Below are positions 6,382 to 61,637 of a stretch of DNA of 64,000 bases, piece after piece. A program made the position numbers and the translations under genes. Below the pieces are notes generated by a model that saw only the letters and a program-made list of their open reading frames with translations, made no database searches and was not told the origin of the DNA. Location: IMG/VR virus record IMGVR_UViG_3300017766_003652, positions 25,012 to 89,011 of that record; one strand, written 5' to 3'. How positions within the stretch are numbered: position 1 is the first letter of the stretch; each line of letters starts with the position of its first letter. This DNA is from a virus. Its lineage: Duplodnaviria; Caudoviricetes.

Positions 6382-6450
6382 CCCAAACCACAACCAACAA
6401 ACGGGGGCCCTTACCGGCTCCCGTTTCCGTATCATCACTTCGGAGGTCCT

Positions 6451-6630
6451 ATGTCCGAGCAAGACCAATCATTCCAGCAGGTATTGAGCCGGCTGGAGAA
6501 CCTAGAACAAGCGATGGCTCAAACGACCGCGGCCGTACAGAACCTAGCAGCGTCCATGCTACACCTCAAAAGGGAGCAGGACCGGCAACGCCGTCCCCGC
6601 CCCAGAAAGACCCTGGTCAAACATGCCTGA
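6451..6630 (+). CDS. Small coiled-coil protein (59 aa)
   Basis: Manual translation MSEQDQSF...; GGAGG upstream. Confidence 0.55.
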   Translation: MSEQDQSFQQVLSRLENLEQAMAQTTAAVQNLAASMLHLKREQDRQRRPRPRKTLVKHA

Positions 6631-6949
6631 ACCACAAGAGACAAAGCCCGTTTGTACTTGGCTGGATAAGCGCCCCTGCGGGCGCATCCCGATCCACAAG
6701 AAGGTCGGGCGAGATGAGAAGCAGTGGGCCTACCTTTGCGAGGCTCACCACCGGCAACTTGAGGAGGCGCTTAACCCCGAATCCCCGATGTTCGACTACC
6801 AGTACGCCGTGAAGTGCTGGATGCGGGCCTCAGGTGGGGTGGAGGTACTCGCCCGCTCCCTTGGGGAGTCCCTGGTCGACAACCTCGGTACCGAGTTCTG
6901 CAAGAAGTTCCTGGTCAAGGTGAAGGAGGACATCAGTGCTAAGCGATAA
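6623..6949 (+). CDS. Hypothetical protein, possible Zn-binding
   Basis: CTW...PCG...CEAHH. Confidence 0.55.
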   Translation: MPEPQETKPVCTWLDKRPCGRIPIHKKVGRDEKQWAYLCEAHHRQLEEALNPESPMFDYQYAVKCWMRASGGVEVLARSLGESLVDNLGTEFCKKFLVKVKEDISAKR

Positions 6950-7517
6950 CCTCAATGCCCTTCAATCCTGCCTGATTGCCTGGGTCGGTGCCGGCGATAT
7001 CCCCTCCCGCAGCTACACCGTGACCGTTGATACGCCTTCCAAGGTAGTGGTCGTGAATATCGCCGAACGGTTCTCGGACGGGAGGATCTACGCGGCAGAG
7101 CAGGTCTACAGCCTGACTTTCATCCTTGATACCTCCCCTCCCGCCCTTGTGGGGACTGTAGCCCATTGGCTCCGCGGCGTTGAGAAGGAGATCGAAGTTC
7201 TTCGGAGTACACCTCCAGCCTCAGTTGAAGCCGCGGCATCCTCGGCTGAGATCGGGCGGGAGTCCATCTCTGAGGGATTCCGGGCGTTCCTCCGGGGTAT
7301 CCACTACAATGGCGGGACAGATGACGAGCGGGTCCTCTGCTACGCCTATTACTCCGGCTTTGTCCAGGGGTTCACCGCCCTGGACCATACGGTCGTCATG
7401 ACCCTGAGCGAGGAGGAAATCCTTGCCCTGTATTCCTGGTATGAGCGGGAGTTGAAGACATTCTACGCAAAGGTAAAGGCAGATGCTGGCATCCCGGAAT
7501 CCACTAAACCAAACTGA
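6936..7517 (+). CDS. Hypothetical protein
   Basis: GGAGG upstream of GTG start. Confidence 0.6.
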   Translation: MLSDNLNALQSCLIAWVGAGDIPSRSYTVTVDTPSKVVVVNIAERFSDGRIYAAEQVYSLTFILDTSPPALVGTVAHWLRGVEKEIEVLRSTPPASVEAAASSAEIGRESISEGFRAFLRGIHYNGGTDDERVLCYAYYSGFVQGFTALDHTVVMTLSEEEILALYSWYERELKTFYAKVKADAGIPESTKPN

Positions 7518-7530
7518 ATCGAATCCCCGG

Positions 7531-8037
7531 ATGGAGCAGTTGAACAGTATCCTCGCCATGCGGCGAGAGATGGTCATCGAATTCCTGGAACTCCTCCGCA
7601 CCAAGGGGTACAGTAAGGGTCTCTGCTCCGGGGACCTGTTCCGGGCGATCTGCCGGCACTTCGATGTTTATGTTGCCCGCTGCAAGGAGTGCCACAAATA
7701 CTATGGGCGGGAGGATTTCCCACACTGGGCCGCGATGAAGGGAGTGGCCCTCCCTCGGTACTTCACAAAGCTCATCTGCTTCACCTGCAAGAAGGATAAG
7801 ATGACCACCCACCCCTCCAGGCAGTGCCGTAAATTCCAGATATCCATGCAGGTCAACGGAGAGCCGCGGATCTACTATGTTGCCGCCAGGAGGAAGCGGG
7901 AGGCCTTCTCCCTCCTGTTCCGTGCTAACTACCACCAGCTGGACCCCGCCCTGGCGGATGAGGCTGCCCTGCTCTATCAGGGACTCCCGGCCGATATCCA
8001 AGAAACCCGGAGGAACGATGTCAAAGCCAAGCCGTGA
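7531..8037 (+). CDS. Hypothetical protein with CxxC pairs
   Basis: CKEC and CFTC motifs. Confidence 0.55.
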   Translation: MEQLNSILAMRREMVIEFLELLRTKGYSKGLCSGDLFRAICRHFDVYVARCKECHKYYGREDFPHWAAMKGVALPRYFTKLICFTCKKDKMTTHPSRQCRKFQISMQVNGEPRIYYVAARRKREAFSLLFRANYHQLDPALADEAALLYQGLPADIQETRRNDVKAKP

Positions 8038-15392: not shown

Positions 15393-15615
15393 CTCCCAGT
15401 TCCTTGGGGTCCTCCGGGCGGTACGGACCAGCCTGGGTCCAGAAGGTGCCGGACCGGAGGGGTTTGCGCGGGCAATCTCGGTTACCTGCAAGACCCTGGA
15501 CCTCTGCCCCCATTGTTTGGCCGGCAAAGGTACCGTACTGAATACAAGATCCGGCAGACTGGAGACCTGCCCCTCCTGCCGCGGGGTCGGAGCGTACCAT
15601 CAAAACGAGCCATGA
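15382..15615 (+). CDS. Small CxxCxGxG zinc-finger protein
   Basis: CPHCLAGKG and CPSCRGVG. Confidence 0.55.
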   Translation: MDGNSQFLGVLRAVRTSLGPEGAGPEGFARAISVTCKTLDLCPHCLAGKGTVLNTRSGRLETCPSCRGVGAYHQNEP

Positions 15616-15920
15616 AATACATCACCATTGAAGTAGACCACGAGCATCTCCCTATCCGGTACGGGTTTGTGTTCCCGGAGGAGATGATTCACGCCGAGAT
15701 GGCAAAGTATATGTGCCATGCACTGTACCGCCAGTTTCCGAGGACTACCGTCAAGGTTATCGGAGCCGGTTTCATCTCTAATACCTGGCAGGTGTACGGC
15801 GAGTCCGAGAGCCTCAAACTCAAGGTGGCCCCTGGCGATCAGGAGGTCTTCACCTATGGACCCCGTAACGCGGCCCAGTTGAAACAGCTAGCCGAGATGG
15901 GAGCGCAAATCAAACTATGA
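15612..15920 (+). CDS. Hypothetical protein
   Basis: ATGA overlaps at both ends. Confidence 0.6.
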   Translation: MKYITIEVDHEHLPIRYGFVFPEEMIHAEMAKYMCHALYRQFPRTTVKVIGAGFISNTWQVYGESESLKLKVAPGDQEVFTYGPRNAAQLKQLAEMGAQIKL

Positions 15921-16408
15921 GCCGCATCTTCTCCTCCTCAGCCAGTGCCGAGAAAGCCGGGCTGGCTACCTTCGATACCCTGGAGGGTTCCCACCGTTGG
16001 GAACTGGAGATCAGGGAGCACGGACCGGCAGAGTACTGCTACCACCTAACTCTGTTCCACGAAGAGGGCCCGTTCCTCGATGTCTGGGAGACCGATGTGG
16101 GGGAGTTTGTTGCCAAGGCTCGCCACCCTACCCTCCGCAAGGCCGTCCTCTTCATCTCGGCCAAGACCGCACCCAAGGCTGTCGATGCCCTCCTAAACGC
16201 AGCGCAAGAGTACATCCATGCCCTACGCAATGAGTTGAGTGCCACCGCCCTGATGATGAAGGCGGATGCTCAGGTCTACCGGCAATGCAAACGGGCACGC
16301 AAGGAAGTACTGCCCCGCATAACCCATCAGGAGTCACCCAATGGACAACGGCAGCGACCTTCTAATCTCCGCGGAACTCGAACGGTACAAGCGGGAGAAC
16401 CGGGATAA
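15917..16408 (+). CDS. Hypothetical protein
   Basis: 163-aa ORF coupled to upstream ORF. Confidence 0.55.
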   Translation: MSRIFSSSASAEKAGLATFDTLEGSHRWELEIREHGPAEYCYHLTLFHEEGPFLDVWETDVGEFVAKARHPTLRKAVLFISAKTAPKAVDALLNAAQEYIHALRNELSATALMMKADAQVYRQCKRARKEVLPRITHQESPNGQRQRPSNLRGTRTVQAGEPG

Positions 16409-52638: not shown

Positions 52639-53624
52639 GAACCGTGGTGATCGTAGACGCAAAGAACTTGGTATACCGGGCCCACTTTGGGCACCCGGAT
52701 CTGGCGACCTCAACGGGGCAACCCACCAGTATCCTGTTCGGGGTACCGGTCATGCTCCTAGATATTGACAAGGCGGTCCCACAGGCAGATGTGGTGGTGG
52801 CCTGGGAAGGGACCATGGCCTTTGATAAAGGCAACCGGGTCAAGACCCCGCCGATATGGCGCAAGGAGTACTGCGATAAGTACAAAGCGAACCGGGTCCG
52901 GGACCCCAAGATGGAACGGGCTGACTCCCAGCTGCCGGAACTGTATCGGTTCCTGTCGATCATTGGCTGGCCTCAGCTCTGCGTGCCGGCCCTGGAGGCC
53001 GACGATGTGATAGGAGTTCTCGCCCATAAACTGAGCAAACGCTCAGATGTCGGCACCGTCATCATTTACAGCAAGGATCAGGATTTCCACCAGCTCCTCC
53101 GCCCGGGTCTCCTCCAGCTCATCCCCAGCAAGGACGGGGCCAAGATCTTTGGACCACAGGATGTCCTCCAGGCTACCGGGGTTACCCCCAAGAAGTTTCT
53201 CAGCCTCCGGGCTCTGGCAGGGGATACCAGCGACAACATTAAACCCCTGAAGGGGGTCGGGCCAAAGACGGCTCTTACGATGCTGGAGGATGGGGTGGAC
53301 CCGCGGTTGGAAACTTGGGCGGAGCATCCCAAGGCGGTTCGGCGTAAGTACCCCAAGCTGGAGGAGGCCTGGCCGGATGTCCGCAAGGCCTACCACCTCA
53401 GCAAGATCCCAAAGCAGTTCTCCTACCCTCTCTTCCCCCTGGCCAGCCAGGCCCTCCTATCCAAGCAGGTGACCCCGTTACTTGCCGATACAGGGCGGGT
53501 CATGAGCCGGAGGGTTAAGAACCTTTTGATGTCCGAGTTCGCAACCTTCTGCCGCGAGTACGAAATGGAGTACGTCGAGGAGCAGAGCCACCGATTCTTC
53601 AAGAACGTAAGGGAAACAAAGTAA
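52635..53624 (+). CDS. 5'-3' exonuclease / flap endonuclease
   Basis: IVDAKNLVYRAH, EADDVIG, SKDQDFHQL, LAGDTSDNIKPLKGVGPKTA. Confidence 0.93.
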   Translation: MRTVVIVDAKNLVYRAHFGHPDLATSTGQPTSILFGVPVMLLDIDKAVPQADVVVAWEGTMAFDKGNRVKTPPIWRKEYCDKYKANRVRDPKMERADSQLPELYRFLSIIGWPQLCVPALEADDVIGVLAHKLSKRSDVGTVIIYSKDQDFHQLLRPGLLQLIPSKDGAKIFGPQDVLQATGVTPKKFLSLRALAGDTSDNIKPLKGVGPKTALTMLEDGVDPRLETWAEHPKAVRRKYPKLEEAWPDVRKAYHLSKIPKQFSYPLFPLASQALLSKQVTPLLADTGRVMSRRVKNLLMSEFATFCREYEMEYVEEQSHRFFKNVRETK

Positions 53625-54241
53625 TGGCAACCACACCTACCATAGAGCCGACCCTAGAGAAGCACTCCCACCAGATCAAGGCGCTTGCCTTCAAGTACTG
53701 GAAACACGTTCCTGCCCAGGAACGAAACGCATGTGACCCGGAGGATCTCGTAGCCATCGGCTACCTAGTCTTCCATAAGTGCGTACAGGCATGGGACCCC
53801 AACGGTAAGGCCAAGTTCAACACCTACCTGTACACCGCCCTGCATAACAGGTTCAAAGACTTTATCGCTCACGCCTACCGCCGCCAGAAAATCGAGATGT
53901 GCGACCTCACCATCCAAGCCCTCGATGCTGGAGCCCGGGAAGGGGAACCCCATCAAACAAGGAAACAGGGGCGGGCCCTGGTCGCCGCCTGCCAGACTGA
54001 CATCAATGTCAGCTACCACATGATGCGCACCTTTGAGAGCGAGGTCTCTATGAAGCGCCTGCTCGCTACAGCTCCCTTTGAGGACGCCCGATTGATAGAG
54101 GCCATTATGTTCAGCCCCGACTCCCTCCCGGTCGATCCTGAGCGAACCCTGGCCCCTTTCTTCCCACGCCTCCGGGCTCTGTTCAACTCGGTTGGTATCA
54201 CCTATGAGGACCTGCGGTATCTCCGGCACGCCTCGGTATAG
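53624..54241 (+). CDS. Sigma-70-like factor (region 2 clear, region 4 degenerate)
   Basis: EDLVAIG...WDPNGKAKFNTYLYTALHNRFKD. Confidence 0.7.
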   Translation: MATTPTIEPTLEKHSHQIKALAFKYWKHVPAQERNACDPEDLVAIGYLVFHKCVQAWDPNGKAKFNTYLYTALHNRFKDFIAHAYRRQKIEMCDLTIQALDAGAREGEPHQTRKQGRALVAACQTDINVSYHMMRTFESEVSMKRLLATAPFEDARLIEAIMFSPDSLPVDPERTLAPFFPRLRALFNSVGITYEDLRYLRHASV

Positions 54242-54243
54242 AG

Positions 54244-54840
54244 ATGGAAAGCCGGCACGCAAAGCAACTCGGATGGACAGGAGCGGTCAAGAACCGCTCC
54301 TGTATCCTGTGCCACAAGGCCTATACAGAGACTGACGTGATCCTGTTCCGGTACTTCCCGGACACCCAAGTATGCCATGCCTGCTACCTCCTGATGGAGA
54401 AGGACCCTGGATGCTGTTTCGCCAAAGGGTACGACCCAGGCCATGTAGACTGTTTTAAGCTATGCCCGGATCGCCGGGTCTGCCAATTCTGGACAGAGGA
54501 GAGTATGCCAAAGACCCTACGCCTGAGCGAACGCAACCGGCACCTAGCCCTCCAGTTCCTCAAACAACATAAGGTCCTAAAGGAGAAGACCAAGCCCCGC
54601 CGCAAAGGAGAGCAGCACCCCTTCGCAAAAGGTTCCCTGGTCCGGGCCTGTTTTGATAAAGTGGTTAAGGGAACCACCCTGGAGGCCCTCCGCAAATACT
54701 GCAGCTCCTTGGGGGCTGACTTCCAGCTCATCTTTCGTAAACTCCGGCTAGAGGCCGCTCGCGGTTATGAATGGGAGTGGCTGGAGGACGATGACGGTAA
54801 CATCAAAATAGAATTCGAAAAGGTGAGGCATGACTCGTAA
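54244..54840 (+). CDS. Cys-rich hypothetical protein
   Basis: CILC, CHAC, CC, C..LC...VC; C-terminal PFAKGS helical domain. Confidence 0.65.
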   Translation: MESRHAKQLGWTGAVKNRSCILCHKAYTETDVILFRYFPDTQVCHACYLLMEKDPGCCFAKGYDPGHVDCFKLCPDRRVCQFWTEESMPKTLRLSERNRHLALQFLKQHKVLKEKTKPRRKGEQHPFAKGSLVRACFDKVVKGTTLEALRKYCSSLGADFQLIFRKLRLEAARGYEWEWLEDDDGNIKIEFEKVRHDS

Positions 54841-55855
54841 GAAACTATCTGGCAAGGTTGACTGGGAAGGGCGTAAGAGAACAGACCCGAGCCCGATACT
54901 GTACTTCAGTGGCAATCATGGAATCATGGGTGACAAGGAATCCGGTATCCTCTCGGCGGAGGAGCAGCTCCATAAGGAAACGGGATGGACCCACCGCTGC
55001 ATGAGCTACTGCTACTGGGAGAAGGAGCATCGAGTCAAGAACGCCCTTAACTTTGCCATCAATCATGGCATCAAGGTCTTTCTGGACTCCGGGGCGTTTA
55101 CCCTCCAGTCAGATCCGAACTGTACCTGGGAAACGGTACGGGCTTACGCCGAGCGGTACTGCAAGTTCCTCGATACCTACCGCCACAAAGTCCATTGGTA
55201 CGCCGGGCTTGATTGGAGGAGGGATGCCGCGACCTCCTGGGAAGCCCATCACATGATGCAGAAAATGGGTTACTACCCGGTCCCGGTCTACCATGGGAAC
55301 GACCCGATAACCGAGTTCAAGCGGCTCCTCGATACCGGGTTCCCTCTCATTGCGATCGCCAAGCCCGGCAAGCTCTGGTCCCCGAAGTCCTGGCTGACTG
55401 GGAAGGATCTGCGGACGGTGTACGATCAGGTTCACCACCTGGCTCAACCGTACAAGTGCGCTTTGCATGGGCTGGCCCAGACGGGCAAGTTTATGTTCTC
55501 GTACCCTTGGTACTCCGTTGACTCGACCAATTGGCTGGCCGGATGCAAGAACGGGCAGCTGTTCGATATCGATGCGGTTCATGGCCGGATCAACGCCGTA
55601 TACATTGGGCCTCAGATCCTCAAGGATAAGAAGCAGAACCCCAACAAGAAATACAGGAGCCCGGACTGGGAGGCTCTCGATGTCCAGACCAAGAAACGCC
55701 TGATGGCTGTAGCCCGGCGTTACGGGATGACGGACCAGCTCCTCCTAACCGACTACCAGACCCGCTGCATCTATAACGTGCGGGTCCTCCAGGAATCCAT
55801 TGACGCCGGCACCTTCAAGTTCCATGGGGCCCGGTACCAGAAGGTGCTCCTCTAA
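54830..55855 (+). CDS. dpdA: DpdA-like (TGT-family) DNA transglycosylase, copy 1
   Basis: FLDSGAFT, PVYHG, LHGLA, YPWYSVDSTNW; adjacent to folE. Confidence 0.75.
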   Translation: MTRKKLSGKVDWEGRKRTDPSPILYFSGNHGIMGDKESGILSAEEQLHKETGWTHRCMSYCYWEKEHRVKNALNFAINHGIKVFLDSGAFTLQSDPNCTWETVRAYAERYCKFLDTYRHKVHWYAGLDWRRDAATSWEAHHMMQKMGYYPVPVYHGNDPITEFKRLLDTGFPLIAIAKPGKLWSPKSWLTGKDLRTVYDQVHHLAQPYKCALHGLAQTGKFMFSYPWYSVDSTNWLAGCKNGQLFDIDAVHGRINAVYIGPQILKDKKQNPNKKYRSPDWEALDVQTKKRLMAVARRYGMTDQLLLTDYQTRCIYNVRVLQESIDAGTFKFHGARYQKVLL

Positions 55856-56835
55856 TGCCAAAGAAGTTCCGACAGCTCGATTGGATCGGCCGCAGGGATA
55901 ACGACCCGCGGCCAATCATCTATTTTAGCGGGCACTATATCGACGAGAGCGAGCACTGTACAGTGGTGCCGATCACCCATCGGTGCGTGTCTTACTATTC
56001 CTATCTGCACCGCGGATTCAAAGAGGCTAACTTTGAGGTCCTCTTTCAGCGAGGGGTCGGGGTCTTCCTGGACTCCGGGGCGTTTACCCTCCAGCAAAAG
56101 CCGGGGCTCAAGTGGAAGGACGTCAAGCCCTTTATCGCCGGATACTGCAAGTTCCTCGATACCTTCAAGAGCCGCCTGGACTGGTACGCCACCATGGACT
56201 ACCAGCGGGATGCCAAGACCTCCCAAGATGCGACGACCTACCTCCAGGAACGGGGGTACCTGGCAACCCCGGTCTATCATGGCAACGACAGCCTCGATTG
56301 GCTCCACCGGATGATAGACGAGGGGTACCCCTTGATTGCGGTCGCAAAGCCCTTCCAGACCGAGACCAGCCGCTCCTTCGCTACAGGCCCGAATCTCCGG
56401 CGCTTGTATGATCGGGTCCACAACATCGCCGCCAAGCATGGGGTCGCTCTCCATGGGCTGGCCCAGACCGGGAACCTGATGTTCGAGTACCCGTGGTACT
56501 CGGTTGACTCCACCTCCTGGCTCGATGGCCAACGCCGTGGGGTCCTCTTCCTCCCGGATACCGGGAACGGTCGAGTACTAAAGCTGGTGATGGGGTTCCG
56601 CACCGTTGCCGAGCTCCGGGCTGGTAAGCCCGCAAAGCCGGATGGGTGGGACCATGTTGAACCGAATCTCCTGGCGAGATTCGACGCCAAAAGGAAACAG
56701 CTCAAGATGTCCTGGAAACAGATCTGGACTGACTACCGATATCGGAACGCCTTCAATATGCAATCCTTCCAGGAGTACTCCAACCTCCGGGCAAAACAGA
56801 GCCCGAAGTACTCCCTTCAGAGCACCCTGCTCTAG
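55855..56835 (+). CDS. dpdA: DpdA-like (TGT-family) DNA transglycosylase, copy 2
   Basis: FLDSGAFT, PVYHG, LHGLA, YPWYSVDSTSW. Confidence 0.75.
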   Translation: MPKKFRQLDWIGRRDNDPRPIIYFSGHYIDESEHCTVVPITHRCVSYYSYLHRGFKEANFEVLFQRGVGVFLDSGAFTLQQKPGLKWKDVKPFIAGYCKFLDTFKSRLDWYATMDYQRDAKTSQDATTYLQERGYLATPVYHGNDSLDWLHRMIDEGYPLIAVAKPFQTETSRSFATGPNLRRLYDRVHNIAAKHGVALHGLAQTGNLMFEYPWYSVDSTSWLDGQRRGVLFLPDTGNGRVLKLVMGFRTVAELRAGKPAKPDGWDHVEPNLLARFDAKRKQLKMSWKQIWTDYRYRNAFNMQSFQEYSNLRAKQSPKYSLQSTLL

Positions 56836-56912
56836 GATCGCGTATAAACAATCTGAGGCCCCGGAGGGTATCCAACCGCCGGACGGGCCAGTACAATCGC
56901 AAGGAGCCCCGT

Positions 56913-57551
56913 TTGCGGTTGAAATTTCGGGGGTATAAAGAGGGAGTGATGCAAGATAAACCAAAGCCGGCCGGACATTGGGAACGGATGATAGCCGAGG
57001 GGCTCCGCGGGATGCTGGAGTCTCTGCACGAAGGGGACAGCCTTGCCCCGGAGGACTACGAGGAACACACCGAGGATACCCCGAACCGGGTTGTCAAGGC
57101 CTACCGGGAGTTCTTTGTGGGCTGCAAGATCGACCCGCGCAAGATCCTGGAGAGGAGCTTCACCAGCGGGAGCTACGATCAGATGGTCACTGTCATGGAT
57201 CTGGATGTCACCAGTTTCTGTAGCCACCATCTCCTGCCGTTTGTTGGGAAGGCCCATTTTGCGTACGTCCCCAATGGCAAGATCGTCGGGTTATCCAAGG
57301 TGCCCCGGTTCATCGACGTACTCGCGGCCCGGCCTCAGGTCCAGGAGCGGTTGTCGCAACAGATCGTGGACATATTCCAGGATACGGTCGGGCCCCTCGG
57401 TTGCGGGGTGGTACTGGATTGCCTCCACACTTGTATGAGCGTTCGCGGGGTCAAGAAAACCGGGATCACCCGGACAACGGCTCTGCGCGGGGTATTCACG
57501 CAGGATACGGTTCGCAATGAGTTTCTGACGGCCATCGGGAGGGCAAAATAG
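56913..57551 (+). CDS. folE: GTP cyclohydrolase I
   Basis: TPNRV, SFCSHHLLPF, GLSK, RPQVQERL, HTCMSVRG; TACAAT at 56892 and AAGGAG upstream. Confidence 0.95.
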   Translation: MRLKFRGYKEGVMQDKPKPAGHWERMIAEGLRGMLESLHEGDSLAPEDYEEHTEDTPNRVVKAYREFFVGCKIDPRKILERSFTSGSYDQMVTVMDLDVTSFCSHHLLPFVGKAHFAYVPNGKIVGLSKVPRFIDVLAARPQVQERLSQQIVDIFQDTVGPLGCGVVLDCLHTCMSVRGVKKTGITRTTALRGVFTQDTVRNEFLTAIGRAK

Positions 57552-58666
57552 TGCAGGTAAATGCGCATCAGCTACTAGGGGCAATCGAGGTACTGAACCT
57601 TGTCCCGGCACGGTCTGGCGTTCGCAGTAGCGAAATCGTTAAGATCGTAGCCAAAAAGAAATCGCTTCAGCTCATGCTGGCGAGCGAGATCAAAGGTTGC
57701 GTCTCGGTACCAACCGCGGACGGGGAGGACTACGAGGTCTTTGTGGATCGGGCAAAGCTGTTCTCGTTCCTCAACCTCGCCAAGGGCTCCAAGAAAGAGG
57801 CGACCTTCTCGCTGACCTACACCCAGGAGGCCGGAGGGGTTGCCCTGGAAATCAAACTCGGCCGGCGCCGTGCCGAGTATATCGGGATTGACCCGGTCTC
57901 TGGCTATAGCAAGGTCGGGGCTGTACAGGAGGAGAAGGAACTCTCCCTCGATGCTGAGCTGGTCGCCCTGGTCGGGCTGGCCGCAAAGTATACCACCACC
58001 GACTTTACCCGACCGGAGTTGAACGGGGTCCATCTCCTCAAGAAAACAGACATGGTCGTCTCCTCGAAGATCGGGGCGATTAACTTTGCCGGGGAACACA
58101 AAGGGATCTCCGTCACCACTCCCCTCCCGGAGGAGTTCTCGGCCTTCCTGACCCAGGCCACCAAGGTGCTGGTCAGCCGCTCCGGTTGTCGGCTGGTCTT
58201 CCCCTCCGGGAGCCTGTTCCGATCCTTCAACGACGATCAGTTCACGGGCAAGATCGCCAGTATTGCCGACCTGCTCAAGCAGTTTGCGGCCGAGCCCCTG
58301 GCGATCCAATGTAGTGCCGAGGCTCTGCAACGGGCCCTGGGTCGCCTGAAGAGCTGCTGCGGTGAGGACAGCGACTATCCGGTCCTCCTGTCCGCAGCGA
58401 AGGGGGAAACGACCCTGACGATGACCGTGAAGGGGGAAACCTGGCAGTTCGATGAGGTACTCCGCAACGTCACGTTGAAGGGGGCCGTGACCTTCGACCT
58501 CCCTCTGTTCCATCTCCTCCCGATGCTGGAGGCTGCGGCCTCCGACAAGGACTACTTGGTCAAACTCCACTTCTCAAAGGGGGCCTCAGCCGGCTACGCC
58601 AAACTGGATGCCAAGGGCTGGCACCTACTTATGTGCCGGACCAAGGTGGAGGAGAAGGGGAAATGA
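57551..58666 (+). CDS. dnaN: DNA polymerase III beta-like sliding clamp
   Basis: 371 aa; TDFTRPELNGVHL motif; three-domain length; replication context. Confidence 0.65.
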   Translation: MQVNAHQLLGAIEVLNLVPARSGVRSSEIVKIVAKKKSLQLMLASEIKGCVSVPTADGEDYEVFVDRAKLFSFLNLAKGSKKEATFSLTYTQEAGGVALEIKLGRRRAEYIGIDPVSGYSKVGAVQEEKELSLDAELVALVGLAAKYTTTDFTRPELNGVHLLKKTDMVVSSKIGAINFAGEHKGISVTTPLPEEFSAFLTQATKVLVSRSGCRLVFPSGSLFRSFNDDQFTGKIASIADLLKQFAAEPLAIQCSAEALQRALGRLKSCCGEDSDYPVLLSAAKGETTLTMTVKGETWQFDEVLRNVTLKGAVTFDLPLFHLLPMLEAAASDKDYLVKLHFSKGASAGYAKLDAKGWHLLMCRTKVEEKGK

Positions 58667-58889: not shown

Positions 58890-61637
58890 ATGCCAGTACT
58901 TCTTGCGGATCTCCTTAGCGGCAAGGCTACCAAGATCCAAACGGTAAAGGGACGGGTCGTCAATCCTGACGGCTCCGTCTCAAAGCGGGGGCTCCTCGGA
59001 TGCGAGGGATGCCCCCTGAACAAGAGCCCATTCAAGTTCCTCAGTACCAAGAACCTTGCGGACAAGAAAGTGGTCCTCTGGTCCCTGGCTCCCGCGGCTC
59101 GGGAGATCGAGCAGGAGAAAATGTACGCCTCTGACTCCTGGCGATGGCTTTGGAAACAGTTTGAGAAGGTAGGTCTGGCAAAAGAGGATTTCGCAAAGCA
59201 GTACGTGGTACGGTGCCACCCTGTAGAGAAACGGGATGGCAAACTATTCAACCGGCTCCCGTCCAAGGTTGAGCTGCGGCAATGCTCCCATCATACGAAC
59301 CGGATGTTGAACGAGCTCGGGGATTCCCCGCGGGTATGGGTCGTTGTCGGGGTCGAGACCGCGGAGCAACTCCTCCGAGGGGAGTTCAAGAAGTCCAAGC
59401 CTGTATTTTGGTCGGAGAAGTACGGGGTCCATGTGATCTATATCGACCACCCTTTGACCCTTATGCAGGGCAAGGCTGATTGGAAACTGGAGAAGTTCCG
59501 GGCCCGTCTCAAGGCCCTGCCGTTTCTGATCGAGAACCGGGGTCGCTGGGCGTACCTAAACAAAGCGGACTATGGTGGCCTCTTCAAACCGAAAGAGGTG
59601 GCTCACTGGCTCGATATCATGCGGGCCAAGGCCAAGAAGGGCGTACGCATCTCGGTCGATATCGAGGATGCCAAGATAAACGGGACCCGCCGCCTACTCT
59701 GTGTAGGCTTTGCCGCTTCTACAACCAAGGCAAGGGCAGTGGTCCTCTACCATCCGGAAAACAAGTACCCTCAGTACATCGAACGGAACCTGGCCTTGGT
59801 GAAGGAGTTCCTGGAGGACCCCAGCATACAGAAGGTCCTCCATTATGGTTCGAGTGATAAGCGGGGGCTCCGCAAGACCGCGGGCATTAAACTCCGGGGG
59901 TACGAGTACGACACAACCTACGCCCATTACCTCCGGTACACCTTCCTGCGGAGTCATGGGCTGGAGGCGATCGCAGATGAACACTACCCCCTCTTTGCGG
60001 GGTACAAGCAGTATGTCGCCCAGTACACCGCGGGAGGGGATTTCAGCAAGATCCCCCTGCAAAAGATTATCCGGTATAACTGCCAGGATACCTGCCTGAC
60101 CAAGCAGATCGAGAAGGATACAGAGCCCCACATCTCCCTCCCCCTCCTCAAGGTCTACACCTGGGCGGGCATGACGATCTCCTCTATGGAACGCCGAGGC
60201 CCCGCTTTCGATGAGAGGTATGCCAAGGAAGTCGTCAGTATCGTTCCCAAACGCATCGAGAAACTGATTACAGAGCTGAAGCTCCTATCAGGGGACCCGG
60301 AGTTCAACCCCGGAGCCAACCTCGAAGTGGCGGCAATCCTCTATGACAAACTGGGGATGCCTTGCGTGAATGACAAACCCGGTAAGGAACGGGCTACGGA
60401 CAAGCAGACCCTCGACCTCCTGAGCCAGGAGGCGGAGCACCCATTTCTCGATGCCCTCAAAGAGTGGCGCTCCTACGAGAAGATGGAGGGCACCTATATC
60501 AAGAAATACGCTGAGAGCGCCCGTTTGAACAATGGGGAGCTAAGAGCCAAGTGGTACCTTACGGGCGCCGTAACGGGGCGCCTACGCTGCGGAGGGAAGG
60601 GAGATGGGTTCGAGGGGGTTATCAACTTTCAGAACCTCCATGGGAAGCCCTTCCTCCAGAACATGCTGGTCAGCGATCCCAAGTGGCGGGACATCCTAAT
60701 CGGCACAGATGAGTATACAGTCTCTACCTCCTTTGCCGAGGATAACGGGGACCTCTGGGTCTTTCTATCTGCCGACTATTCCCAGGTTGAAATCAGGATG
60801 CTGGCCGAGGTCAGCGGGGACAAGCTCCTCCTGAAGCAGTTCCAGGATGCGGCTCTAGCCGAGGACCCCAGTGATCCTAGAGCAGACATTCACTGCCTGG
60901 TCGGTAACCTCCTGAACCCGGCGTGGTCCCTGGAGTTCATCAAAGGGGATAAGCCGACCAGAACCTTCATCAAGAACTGCCACTTCGGTATGGTGTACGG
61001 ATTGTCCGAGGAGGGGCTGTATCACTACCTAGTTGCCAAGGGAGTCAAGACCTCGCTCAAGAAAGTACGCAAGTTCCATCGGGCCTACTTTGCCAAGTAC
61101 AAAGGCGTTGCCCGGTTCATCGAGGTTATGAGAGAGAAGGCCGAGAGAGAAGGGCACGTAGACACCATATTTGGTTTTGTCCGTAGGGTAGGAGCCGGCG
61201 ACTACGATACCTCCCGGTCAACTAACCCGATGAACCAAGCGATCAATAGCCCGATTCAAGGGGCTGCCCACCAGCTCCTCCTGAACATCATGGCGATTCT
61301 CAACCGCAAACCGGCCCAGTATCATCTGCTGGCCAACCTCCTCGCCGAGGTACACGACGCCCTGGTCTACCGCGTGCGGCTCCGGGATCTTCCCGCTGCG
61401 TATAATCAATGCAAGGAACTCATGGAGAAACAGGTCGCAGACTTTACGCATAAGATCTTTGGCCGGGCCCTACGGGTCCCGCTCCTCTCTGAATGTTCTG
61501 CCGGGTTCCGGTACGGGGTTCAGGTTGAGTATCATGGAGCCCCGGCCTCGGAGTTCCTCAAGGCGTGGAACAAAAAGAATGCCAAGGTAGAGGCCGAGGT
61601 AGCGGCAGAGTTTCTGACGGAGCGTAAGGCTCGATGA
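58890..61637 (+). CDS. polA: Family A DNA polymerase with N-terminal uracil-DNA-glycosylase-like domain and 3'-5' exonuclease
   Basis: CEGCPL...VRCHP...P...ELRQC; VDIED, YNCQD; ADYSQVEIR, KNCHFGMVYG, EVHDAL. Confidence 0.93.
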   Translation: MPVLLADLLSGKATKIQTVKGRVVNPDGSVSKRGLLGCEGCPLNKSPFKFLSTKNLADKKVVLWSLAPAAREIEQEKMYASDSWRWLWKQFEKVGLAKEDFAKQYVVRCHPVEKRDGKLFNRLPSKVELRQCSHHTNRMLNELGDSPRVWVVVGVETAEQLLRGEFKKSKPVFWSEKYGVHVIYIDHPLTLMQGKADWKLEKFRARLKALPFLIENRGRWAYLNKADYGGLFKPKEVAHWLDIMRAKAKKGVRISVDIEDAKINGTRRLLCVGFAASTTKARAVVLYHPENKYPQYIERNLALVKEFLEDPSIQKVLHYGSSDKRGLRKTAGIKLRGYEYDTTYAHYLRYTFLRSHGLEAIADEHYPLFAGYKQYVAQYTAGGDFSKIPLQKIIRYNCQDTCLTKQIEKDTEPHISLPLLKVYTWAGMTISSMERRGPAFDERYAKEVVSIVPKRIEKLITELKLLSGDPEFNPGANLEVAAILYDKLGMPCVNDKPGKERATDKQTLDLLSQEAEHPFLDALKEWRSYEKMEGTYIKKYAESARLNNGELRAKWYLTGAVTGRLRCGGKGDGFEGVINFQNLHGKPFLQNMLVSDPKWRDILIGTDEYTVSTSFAEDNGDLWVFLSADYSQVEIRMLAEVSGDKLLLKQFQDAALAEDPSDPRADIHCLVGNLLNPAWSLEFIKGDKPTRTFIKNCHFGMVYGLSEEGLYHYLVAKGVKTSLKKVRKFHRAYFAKYKGVARFIEVMREKAEREGHVDTIFGFVRRVGAGDYDTSRSTNPMNQAINSPIQGAAHQLLLNIMAILNRKPAQYHLLANLLAEVHDALVYRVRLRDLPAAYNQCKELMEKQVADFTHKIFGRALRVPLLSECSAGFRYGVQVEYHGAPASEFLKAWNKKNAKVEAEVAAEFLTERKAR

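What the first reader, a model, noticed from the sequence alone, without database searches (positions are those of the whole stretch)
54830..57551. Two tandem DpdA-like transglycosylases plus FolE: a possibly new 7-deazaguanine DNA modification variant
Seen: two coupled paralogs (TAATG overlap) that both keep the TGT-type Asp motifs (FLDSGAF and SVDST) and share an identical 27-nt stretch (55082-55108 and 56068-56094), yet diverge in the N-terminal and C-terminal regions. folE follows. Established: phage DpdA swaps guanine for 7-deazaguanine derivatives made through FolE, QueD, QueE and QueC, protecting DNA from restriction, and described phages generally carry one dpdA. QueD/E/C are not in this window. 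Inference: the copies may differ in base or sequence-context specificity, work as a heterodimer, or one may act on RNA, giving a doubly modified genome.
Basis: partly seen in the sequence, partly recalled or inferred. Interest (0 to 1): 0.8.

Follow-up and report, generated by a model that had tools for sequence, protein, structure and literature searches.

The report
Two coupled DpdA enzymes in phage
A complete 89-kb uncultured phage carries the known gene set for replacing guanine in its DNA with a 7-deazaguanine base, but with two old, intact, back-to-back copies of the base-swapping enzyme; this layout recurs in other phages and nobody has tested what the second copy does.

Summary
Window 54830-55855 and 55855-56835 encode two paralogs, 41% identical, joined by a TAATG overlap. 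Both belong to phrog_887, which also holds the validated DNA transglycosylases (DpdA) of phages 9g, CAjan and Iggy. Both fold as TGT-type TIM barrels and keep every catalytic residue. folE follows. queD, queE and queC lie elsewhere in the same complete 89,011-bp phage genome, so the preQ0 pathway is whole. queF, a ParB/DpdB partner, a canonical tRNA TGT and tRNA genes were not found.

The pair is old. A-type and B-type orthologs appear to sit together in at least two or three related contigs, and both evolve at similar rates, so neither copy is decaying. Complete sister genomes carry one copy.

Independent pairs occur in about 5% of the DpdA loci I sampled and in cultured Microbacterium phage Nicole72. 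This scan has also noted multi-copy DpdA arrays on other DNA, in Streptomyces prophages and another uncultured virus. I found no paper on the subject.

Most likely both enzymes insert preQ0 into DNA. The conserved active-site motifs are shared, but the flanks diverge, which suggests different sequence contexts; a heterodimer is the main rival. An RNA target is unlikely.

This is a new variant of a known system, of moderate interest.

The parts
54830..55855 (+). dpdA-A (P0001, 341 aa): DpdA1-like DNA guanine transglycosylase, paralog A. GGTGAGG ribosome-binding site upstream; overlaps the upstream ORF by 11 nt.
   Evidence: phrog_887 E 6.5e-25. AF2 pLDDT 90.7. TGT fold Z 17.7 over 278 residues. 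D86, F90, D128, H155, H213 and D231 are conserved.
55855..56835 (+). dpdA-B (P0002, 326 aa): paralog B, translationally coupled to A through the TAATG overlap.
   Evidence: phrog_887 E 8e-22. AF2 pLDDT 89.9. Foldseek hits TGT at E 2e-5 and the DpdA structure 7ui4 at E 2.2e-4. D73, F77, D115, H142, H200 and D218 are conserved.
55082..55108 (+). 27-nt stretch identical to 56068-56094; encodes LDSGAFTLQ, which includes the general acid/base Asp.
   Evidence: P about 0.0008 under synonymous-codon resampling. This fits a short gene-conversion tract or a constraint at nucleotide level.
56068..56094 (+). Second copy of the identical 27-nt stretch, inside dpdA-B.
56949..57551 (+). folE, GTP cyclohydrolase I, first step of preQ0 synthesis. 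The ORF is open from TTG 56913; the ATG at 56949 behind GAGGGAG is the likelier start.
   Evidence: PF01227 E 6.7e-54. NCBIfam FolE E 1e-54. phrog_2197 E 1e-54. Sequence read.
57551..58666 (+). Beta-type sliding clamp (P0004), directly downstream. The dpdA-folE-clamp-polA order is kept in relatives, and folE-dpdA-clamp is found in 9g and Iggy.
   Evidence: phrog_947 E 3e-7. Synteny.
58890..61637 (+). Family A DNA polymerase with an N-terminal uracil-DNA-glycosylase-superfamily domain; part of the conserved replication module that holds the dpdA pair.
   Evidence: PF00476 E 1e-55, PF03167 E 2.5e-12, PF01612 E 2e-10.

Best explanation
Both genes encode active, DpdA1-like DNA guanine transglycosylases. 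The phage makes preQ0 from GTP with its own FolE, QueD, QueE and QueC. After replication, the two enzymes exchange guanines in phage DNA for preQ0, or for a close derivative, which shields the DNA from restriction.

The reaction is the TGT-type double displacement. In A, D231 is the nucleophile and D86 the general acid/base; D128 and H155 read the base and F90 stacks on it. B has the same set at D218, D73, D115, H142 and F77.

The pair arose by an old duplication and both copies have been kept. The conserved active-site motifs are shared, but the N-terminal part, the loop just after the nucleophile and the C-terminal third have diverged. I therefore infer that the two enzymes take the same base but prefer different DNA sequence contexts, so that together they modify more guanines, and protect more restriction sites, than one enzyme could.

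Shown: family, fold, residues, pathway, age and retention of the pair. Inferred: activity, the base inserted and the division of labour.
For: Family: phrog_887 matches at E 6.5e-25 and 8e-22. The same family takes 9g, CAjan and Iggy DpdA at E 2e-98 to 5e-86 and rings in none of 14 cellular control genomes.

Fold: Z 17.7, 278 residues aligned to TGT; B also hits the DpdA structure 7ui4.

Residues: eight columns are invariant over 68 homologs, including the three Asp, in both copies. They correspond to D95, F99, D130, H181 and D256 of Salmonella DpdA, whose D95A and D256A mutants are dead (PMC10164549).

Pathway: FolE, QueD, QueE and QueC are all present. There is no QueF hit apart from FolE itself.

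Retention: B-type orthologs P0011 and P0008 group with B (96/94) and the A-type group has 100/99 support.

Rates: identity between the window phage and the phage of the 2763-bp contig is 53/78/56% for A and 74/81/61% for B, in the N-terminal, core and C-terminal parts.

Divergence pattern: core 53% against C-terminal third 20%. Fifteen sites are fixed differently in A and B, including A237/D224 in the loop after the nucleophile, where all three B orthologs read DGQRRG.

Recurrence: independent pairs occur in other lineages.

Precedent: known DpdAs are motif-specific, GA only for Iggy and GA plus GGC for CAjan (PMC10484667; PMC7544227).
Against: There are no modification data and no isolate. 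Which residues set the sequence context in DpdA is unknown, so divergence of the flanks does not prove different motifs. CAjan covers two motifs with one enzyme, so a second gene is not required for that. Tight translational coupling and strict co-retention would also suit a heteromer. Some unannotated neighbours could alter the base after insertion, so the final base is uncertain.
Confidence: 0.45

Rival explanations
1. The two paralogs form an obligate or preferred heterodimer, a single enzyme made of two different but both catalytically competent subunits. This would parallel the way TGT works as a dimer and eukaryotic TGT as a QTRT1/QTRT2 heterodimer.
For: The TAATG overlap would give coupled translation, which suits 1:1 subunits. 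A-type and B-type copies appear together in each related contig long enough to hold both. Other pairs also overlap, such as L071 by 4 nt. The fold matches dimeric TGTs, including the murine heterodimer.
Against: Both copies keep every catalytic residue over deep divergence, whereas the non-catalytic partner of eukaryotic TGT does not (established knowledge). Complete sister genomes manage with one copy. Pairs arose several times independently, which fits an easy gain such as added specificity better than repeated invention of an obligate complex. No fused A-B protein was found, which is weak evidence. Overlapping genes are common throughout this operon.
Confidence: 0.25
2. The two enzymes insert different bases, for example preQ0 and CDG, ADG or another derivative, giving DNA with two kinds of 7-deazaguanine.
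For: DpdA subfamilies differ in base preference, and VH7D DpdA2 is promiscuous (PMC10516641). Several neighbours of queC and queD have no assigned function, and QueD has an unexplained C-terminal extension of about 95 aa.
Against: The conserved active-site motifs and their flanks are nearly the same in A and B (LHGLAQTG, YPWYSVDST, VYHGND). No QueF, amidotransferase-fused QueC, second PTPS paralog or PADLOC Dpd protein was detected.
Confidence: 0.1
3. The copies are functionally redundant and kept for dosage, or as a backup against host factors that inhibit DpdA or force its loss.
For: The catalytic sets are identical. Hosts do carry defences aimed at deazaguanine DNA, and phages escape them through dpdA mutations (bioRxiv 10.1101/2025.10.29.685425).
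Against: Only 41% identity remains, and each lineage has its own conserved, lineage-specific residues (15 fixed differences). That is the signature of divergence in function rather than simple dosage.
Confidence: 0.12
4. One copy acts on RNA (host tRNA) instead of DNA.
For: The fold is shared with tRNA-guanine transglycosylases.
Against: Pfam TGT finds no match anywhere in the genome. There is no CxCxxC zinc motif. Neither ~330-aa protein has length beyond the ~320-residue barrel model in which a PUA domain could sit. The phage has no tRNA genes. Both copies sit inside the phage DpdA clade as each other's near relatives.
Confidence: 0.04
5. One copy is a decaying pseudo-enzyme.
For: None found.
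Against: Both frames are intact and both give confident models. All invariant residues are kept. B is, if anything, more conserved between orthologs than A.
Confidence: 0.02

Closest known systems
Phage DpdA1 of Escherichia phages 9g and CAjan and Pseudomonas phage Iggy (Queuovirinae / Iggyvirus), with FolE-QueD-QueE-QueC
   Same: Same PHROG family (phrog_887). Same catalytic residues. The CxCxxC zinc motif is likewise absent. The preQ0 pathway is the same, and dpdA likewise sits next to folE and the sliding-clamp gene.
   Different: Only about 25% identical. The window's proteins belong to a separate, strongly supported clade with a long stem (100% support). There are two coupled paralogs instead of one gene. 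The phage is unrelated at DNA level and larger, at 89 kb.
Microbacterium phage Nicole72 gp2 and gp4 (the BFVD structure library also lists two such proteins for Microbacterium phage Megan)
   Same: Two near-tandem DpdA paralogs, 48% identical, both with the DSGAF and DSS motifs, next to preQ0 genes.
   Different: This is an independent duplication in an actinophage lineage. A 70-aa ORF lies between the copies. A ParB-like gene is adjacent and the QueC-like protein is long (462 aa). Both genes are annotated only as hypothetical in Nicole72. I found no paper on them.
Bacterial DpdA/DpdB of the Salmonella Montevideo Dpd system (PDB 7UI4)
   Same: TGT-like barrel and the same three active-site Asp. 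It inserts preQ0 into DNA (PMC10164549).
   Different: The bacterial enzyme needs the ParB-like ATPase DpdB and keeps the structural zinc site. Here there is no ParB-like gene, no zinc motif and no PADLOC Dpd match.
Eukaryotic tRNA-guanine transglycosylase heterodimer QTRT1/QTRT2
   Same: Two paralogous TGT-fold subunits arising from a duplication; structures are among the fold matches.
   Different: QTRT2 is non-catalytic and the substrate is tRNA (established knowledge). Here both copies keep all catalytic residues and the context is DNA modification. No interaction has been shown.

Membership tests
Phage DpdA, DpdA1 type (phrog_887) | Profile match to the family that holds experimentally validated phage DpdAs | tested here: met
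   A scores E 6.5e-25 and B E 8e-22. 9g, CAjan and Iggy score 2e-98, 8e-96 and 5e-86 in the same family. There are exactly two matches in the genome, and 0 of 14 cellular controls ring.
Phage DpdA, DpdA1 type (phrog_887) | TGT-type TIM-barrel fold | tested here: met
   AF2 pLDDT 90.7 and 89.9. VIA-align Z 17.7, rmsd 3.8 A, 278 residues to TGT. Foldseek gives TGT at E 2e-5 and DpdA 7ui4 at E 2.2e-4.
Phage DpdA, DpdA1 type (phrog_887) | General acid/base Asp in the DSGxF motif, base-reading Asp and His, and nucleophile Asp (Salmonella D95, F99, D130, H181, D256) | tested here: met
   A has D86, F90, D128, H155 and D231; B has D73, F77, D115, H142 and D218. These are invariant over 68 homologs and shared with 9g, CAjan and Iggy. 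The correspondence to Salmonella numbering rests on motif order, not on a superposition.
Phage DpdA, DpdA1 type (phrog_887) | Encoded with a 7-deazaguanine precursor pathway | tested here: met
   FolE is adjacent. QueD, QueE and QueC are in the same complete genome.
Phage DpdA, DpdA1 type (phrog_887) | Guanine-for-deazaguanine exchange in DNA; modified base present in virion DNA | not testable with these tools
   This is an uncultured IMG/VR genome; no biochemical or modification data exist.
Canonical tRNA-guanine transglycosylase (Pfam PF01702) | Match to the TGT Pfam model | tested here: not met
   Neither protein has a Pfam hit at E <= 1. The whole genome has no PF01702 match at E <= 10, while 14 of 14 controls ring.
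Canonical tRNA-guanine transglycosylase (Pfam PF01702) | Structural zinc site (CxCxxC...H) | tested here: not met
   A and B have no CxCxxC. B has only three Cys, none after the nucleophile.
Bacterial Dpd modification module (DpdA with DpdB) | ParB-like ATPase DpdB partner | tested here: not met
   PF02195 has no match in the genome at E <= 1. Neither the two DpdAs nor eight neighbours hit PADLOC.
DpdA2, DpdA3, DpdA4 subfamilies | Closer sequence or structure kinship to nt-1/VH7D (DpdA2), CP220/phiST (DpdA3) or HVTV-1 (DpdA4) than to DpdA1 | tested here: inconclusive
   The clade profile found nothing in those five records at E <= 1, but the tool warns that an empty answer shows nothing. In BFVD the nt-1 and phiST proteins rank 30th and 44th (E 1.7e-5 and 3.5e-3), behind DpdA1-type actinophage proteins. 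Their sequences were not placed in the tree.
Heterodimeric TGT of the QTRT1/QTRT2 kind | One catalytic subunit and one paralog that has lost the catalytic residues | tested here: not met
   Both copies, and both members of every other complete pair examined, keep all catalytic residues. Physical interaction cannot be tested here.

The most novel reading that the evidence does not exclude
The pair is a two-subunit, clamp-tethered DNA transglycosylase. A and B would form a heteromer in which both active sites work. Each would dock on the phage's beta-type sliding clamp through its conserved C-terminal Q-x-x-L-L tail. Deazaguanine would then be written into both daughter strands, or into two motif classes, right behind the fork. 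That could achieve far higher replacement than single DpdA1 enzymes do.
Probability: 0.15. Interest if true: 0.7.

Novelty: new variant of a known kind. Interest (0 to 1): 0.45.

Why it matters
What makes a DpdA choose GA, GGC or every G is not known, and it decides which restriction and CRISPR defences a phage escapes. Natural paralog pairs that share the conserved active-site motifs but differ in their flanks are a ready-made experiment for finding the specificity determinants. They also bear on whether phages stack transglycosylases to raise coverage. The pair is old, both copies are intact, and similar pairs arose several times, including in cultured Microbacterium phages. This suggests a general strategy that the deazaguanine literature has not yet addressed. 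It does not change the known chemistry or pathway.

Tried and rejected
- **Empty locus scans.** Single-protein scans of IMG/VR gave nothing. The JGI metagenome scan gave two short irrelevant pieces. GTDB genomes gave nothing close and no host clue. tblastn of P0009 against cultured phages found nothing.
- **DNA similarity.** Only a 106-nt folE match to a Variovorax phage.
- **Family libraries.** PDB sequence search, Pfam, NCBIfam and PADLOC gave no family for A or B.
- **DpdA2/3/4.** The clade profile found nothing in the genomes that carry these subfamilies, so they are not in the tree and its root is not fixed.
- **Fused forms.** The search for fused long forms was empty, which is weak evidence.
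- **AU test.** It did not finish on 52 rows and was rerun on 18 rows without the mixture model.
- **Sonali gp81.** It is annotated 'DpdA-like' and looked like a cultured two-copy case, but it does not match the family and was dropped.
- **Clamp-tail idea.** No other replisome protein of this phage ends in the same tail, so it stays a lead only.
- **Promoter and terminator scan.** Nothing above the shuffled background.
Full report
**What is in the sequence.** The window is bases 25012-89011 of a single 89,011-bp IMG/VR virus record. The record has a 123-bp terminal repeat and is rated complete.
- On the + strand, an ORF at 54830-55855 (341 aa, P0001, 'A') is followed by one at 55855-56835 (326 aa, P0002, 'B').
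- The TAA stop of A and the ATG of B share one base, the TAATG overlap.
- A has a GGTGAGG ribosome-binding site and overlaps the upstream ORF by 11 nt.
- After a 113-nt gap comes folE. It matches PF01227 at E 7e-54, and its likely start is the ATG at 56949.
- Next come a beta-type sliding clamp and a UDG-domain/family A polymerase fusion.
- Upstream lie a DnaB-like helicase, a primase-like protein, a 5'-3' exonuclease and a sigma-70-like factor.
- The pair therefore sits inside the replication module of one long co-directional gene block. No promoter-like or terminator-like signal exceeds the shuffled background.

**The paralogs.** A and B are 41% identical (E 1e-82).
- Identity is 53% in the core, 32-40% in the N-terminal part depending on the alignment, and 20% in the C-terminal third.
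Redrawing synonymous codons from the phage's own usage gives a run that long in 0.08% of trials.
- Codon identity at shared residues is about four standard deviations above expectation.
- A short gene-conversion tract between the tandem copies is the simplest reading. It would also explain why the tree pulls A and B slightly towards each other.

**What they are.**
- Neither protein matches Pfam, NCBIfam, PADLOC or any PDB sequence.
- Both match phrog_887, at E 6.5e-25 and 8e-22.
- That family takes the experimentally validated DpdAs of 9g, CAjan and Iggy at E 2e-98 to 5e-86. It rings in none of 14 cellular control genomes and matches exactly twice in this genome.
- tblastn finds the same cultured-phage DpdAs at about 25% identity.
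- AlphaFold2 models built on a 68-sequence alignment are confident, with pLDDT 90.7 and 89.9.
- The models match tRNA-guanine transglycosylases at Z 17.7 over 278 residues. B also matches the DpdA crystal structure 7ui4.
- Among viral models the nearest are uncultured phage proteins and actinophage 'queuine tRNA-ribosyltransferases'. The nt-1 and phiST proteins rank far lower.
- Eight columns are invariant across the 68 homologs: D86, S87, D128, H155, H213, P226, S229 and D231 in A numbering. B has all of them, and so do 9g, CAjan and Iggy.
- By motif order these are the general acid/base Asp, the base-reading Asp and His, and the nucleophile Asp of Salmonella DpdA. Changing either catalytic Asp of that enzyme to Ala abolishes exchange (PMC10164549).
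- The CxCxxC zinc motif of TGT and bacterial DpdA is absent. It is equally absent from the validated phage enzymes.

**The pathway.** QueD, QueE and QueC are encoded at genome positions 6443-7072, 7075-7842 and 15591-16322.
- Because the record is circularly permuted, they lie 7 to 24 kb downstream of the pair.
- The only QueF 'hit' is FolE itself.
- QueC is the plain 243-aa form, and there is a single PTPS-family gene.
- There is no ParB-like DpdB, no canonical TGT and no tRNA gene.
- The predicted product is therefore preQ0, inserted as dPreQ0. Several unannotated neighbours leave a later conversion possible.

**Age and retention of the pair.** The protein database holds close relatives of both copies.
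- P0005 is 94% identical to A. The 90% cluster of B has a second member.
- P0006 (66% to A) and P0011 (74% to B) come from contigs of the same length, 2763 bp.
- P0009 and P0008 come from an 84,586-bp NCBI contig, and P0010 and P0012 from a 23,167-bp contig.
Co-residence is therefore an inference from contig length.
- In the careful tree the A group has 100/99 support, and B with P0011 and P0008 has 96/94.
- Placing P0009 with the A group is not rejected (AU p = 0.097). So one old duplication, kept in at least two deeply diverged phages, remains allowed by the data.
- Both lineages evolve at similar rates. Between the window phage and the phage of the 2763-bp contig, identity is 53/78/56% for A and 74/81/61% for B. 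Neither copy is decaying.
- Four complete sister genomes of 115-129 kb have exactly one DpdA in the same DnaB...dpdA-folE-clamp-polA setting.

**Recurrence elsewhere.**
- Of 80 IMG/VR loci with a relative, four carry two copies: L009, L023 (one copy truncated), L066 and L071.
- Of 28 loci in GTDB genomes, one carries two (L106).
- On the trees these pairs fall in different places, several as near-sisters, so the duplications are independent.
- Every complete member keeps the catalytic residues.
- Among cultured phages, the window's proteins hit one place per record.
- With an actinophage query, however, three of 225 records show two places. Microbacterium phage Nicole72 has gp2 and gp4, 48% identical, both with the motifs. 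BFVD lists two such proteins for phage Megan.
- Sonali gp81, annotated 'DpdA-like', is not of this family.
- No paper in the library mentions two DpdAs in one phage.
- This scan has noted multi-copy DpdA arrays on other DNA, including Streptomyces prophages and another uncultured virus.

**How it most likely works.** The shown facts are two intact enzymes of the DNA-modifying family, a complete preQ0 route, and old, retained duplicates that diverged in specific parts.
- The residues around the active site are almost the same in A and B (LHGLAQTG, YPWYSVDST, VYHGND).
- The loop that follows the nucleophile differs, as do the N-terminal part and the C-terminal third. In Salmonella DpdA the corresponding loop is modelled near the modified site in the minor groove (PMC10164549).
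- That loop is conserved within each lineage. All three B orthologs read DGQRRG, while the A types read AGCKNG, AAMRQG or AGGRNG.
- Known DpdAs are motif-specific: Iggy takes GA only, and CAjan takes GA and GGC.
- I therefore favour two enzymes that take the same base in different sequence contexts (0.45).
- The main rival is a heteromer (0.25). The coupling and the co-retention favour it. Against it stand the fully catalytic second copy, the single-copy sister phages and the repeated independent origins.
- Different bases (0.10), redundancy (0.12), an RNA target (0.04) and decay (0.02) follow.

**A side lead.** Both proteins end in a low-confidence tail...YQKVLL and ...LQSTLL. The clade shares a terminal W-x-x-[LI]-[LIF] pattern, and CAjan and Iggy end in ELF.
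- This resembles beta-clamp-binding peptides, a resemblance I state from memory.
- The gene sits next to the clamp gene in many phages.
- No other replisome protein of this phage has such a tail.

**Verdict.** The system is the known phage 7-deazaguanine DNA-modification system in a divergent DpdA1-like clade. The unusual element is a conserved, coupled, fully catalytic DpdA pair. That arrangement is undescribed in the papers I could search, but it recurs in sequence data and had already been noted by this scan on other genomes. It is a new variant of a known kind and of moderate interest.

Noticed in passing
window 55838-55852 and 56818-56832 (C-termini of A and B): Both DpdAs end in a low-pLDDT tail, YQKVLL and LQSTLL. 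The clade shares a terminal W-x-x-[LI]-[LIF] pattern, and CAjan and Iggy end in ELF. This looks like a beta-clamp-binding peptide, and the clamp gene is next door. No other replisome protein of this phage has the tail.
   Followed up: partly
L004:6443-7072 (genome coordinates, outside the window): QueD is 209 aa. The PTPS domain fills residues 3-114, which leaves a C-terminal extension of about 95 aa with no family match.
   Followed up: no
window 58890-61637: The family A DNA polymerase carries an N-terminal uracil-DNA-glycosylase-superfamily domain (residues 58-207) ahead of the 3'-5' exonuclease and polymerase domains.
   Followed up: no
L009:1244-3927: In this related contig the two DpdA copies are separated by four genes: a short-chain dehydrogenase, two unknowns and a HAD-type hydrolase. 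These could act on the inserted base or its precursor.
   Followed up: partly
L071:3542-5896: Another two-DpdA locus has a FolE fused to an N-terminal phosphoribosyltransferase-like domain. It also has a second radical SAM enzyme besides QueE.
   Followed up: no
L101:2744-4132 (Microbacterium phage Nicole72): Next to its two DpdA paralogs this cultured phage has a 462-aa 'QueC-like' protein, much longer than plain QueC, and a ParB-like gene. Both DpdA genes are annotated only as hypothetical.
   Followed up: partly
L100:83-700 (Arthrobacter phage Sonali gp81): This protein is annotated 'DpdA-like tRNA-guanine transglycosylase', but it does not match the DpdA profile (hhalign probability 0.5%). 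It falls in phrog_15826, of unknown function, so the annotation looks unsafe.
   Followed up: yes
window 56836-56948: The 113-nt gap between dpdA-B and folE is the only sizeable intergenic space in this stretch. It holds an imperfect G+C-rich inverted repeat (ggccccgg...ccggacgggcc). The consensus scans called no promoter or terminator there.
   Followed up: no
window 53624-54241: A sigma-70 region-2 protein (205 aa) lies two genes upstream of the pair, inside the replication block.
   Followed up: no
L004:13946-15325 (genome coordinates, outside the window): A 459-aa protein of phrog_2319 (unknown function, E 1e-69) lies upstream of queC with one small 90-aa ORF between them, which it overlaps. 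It is a candidate extra pathway component.
   Followed up: no
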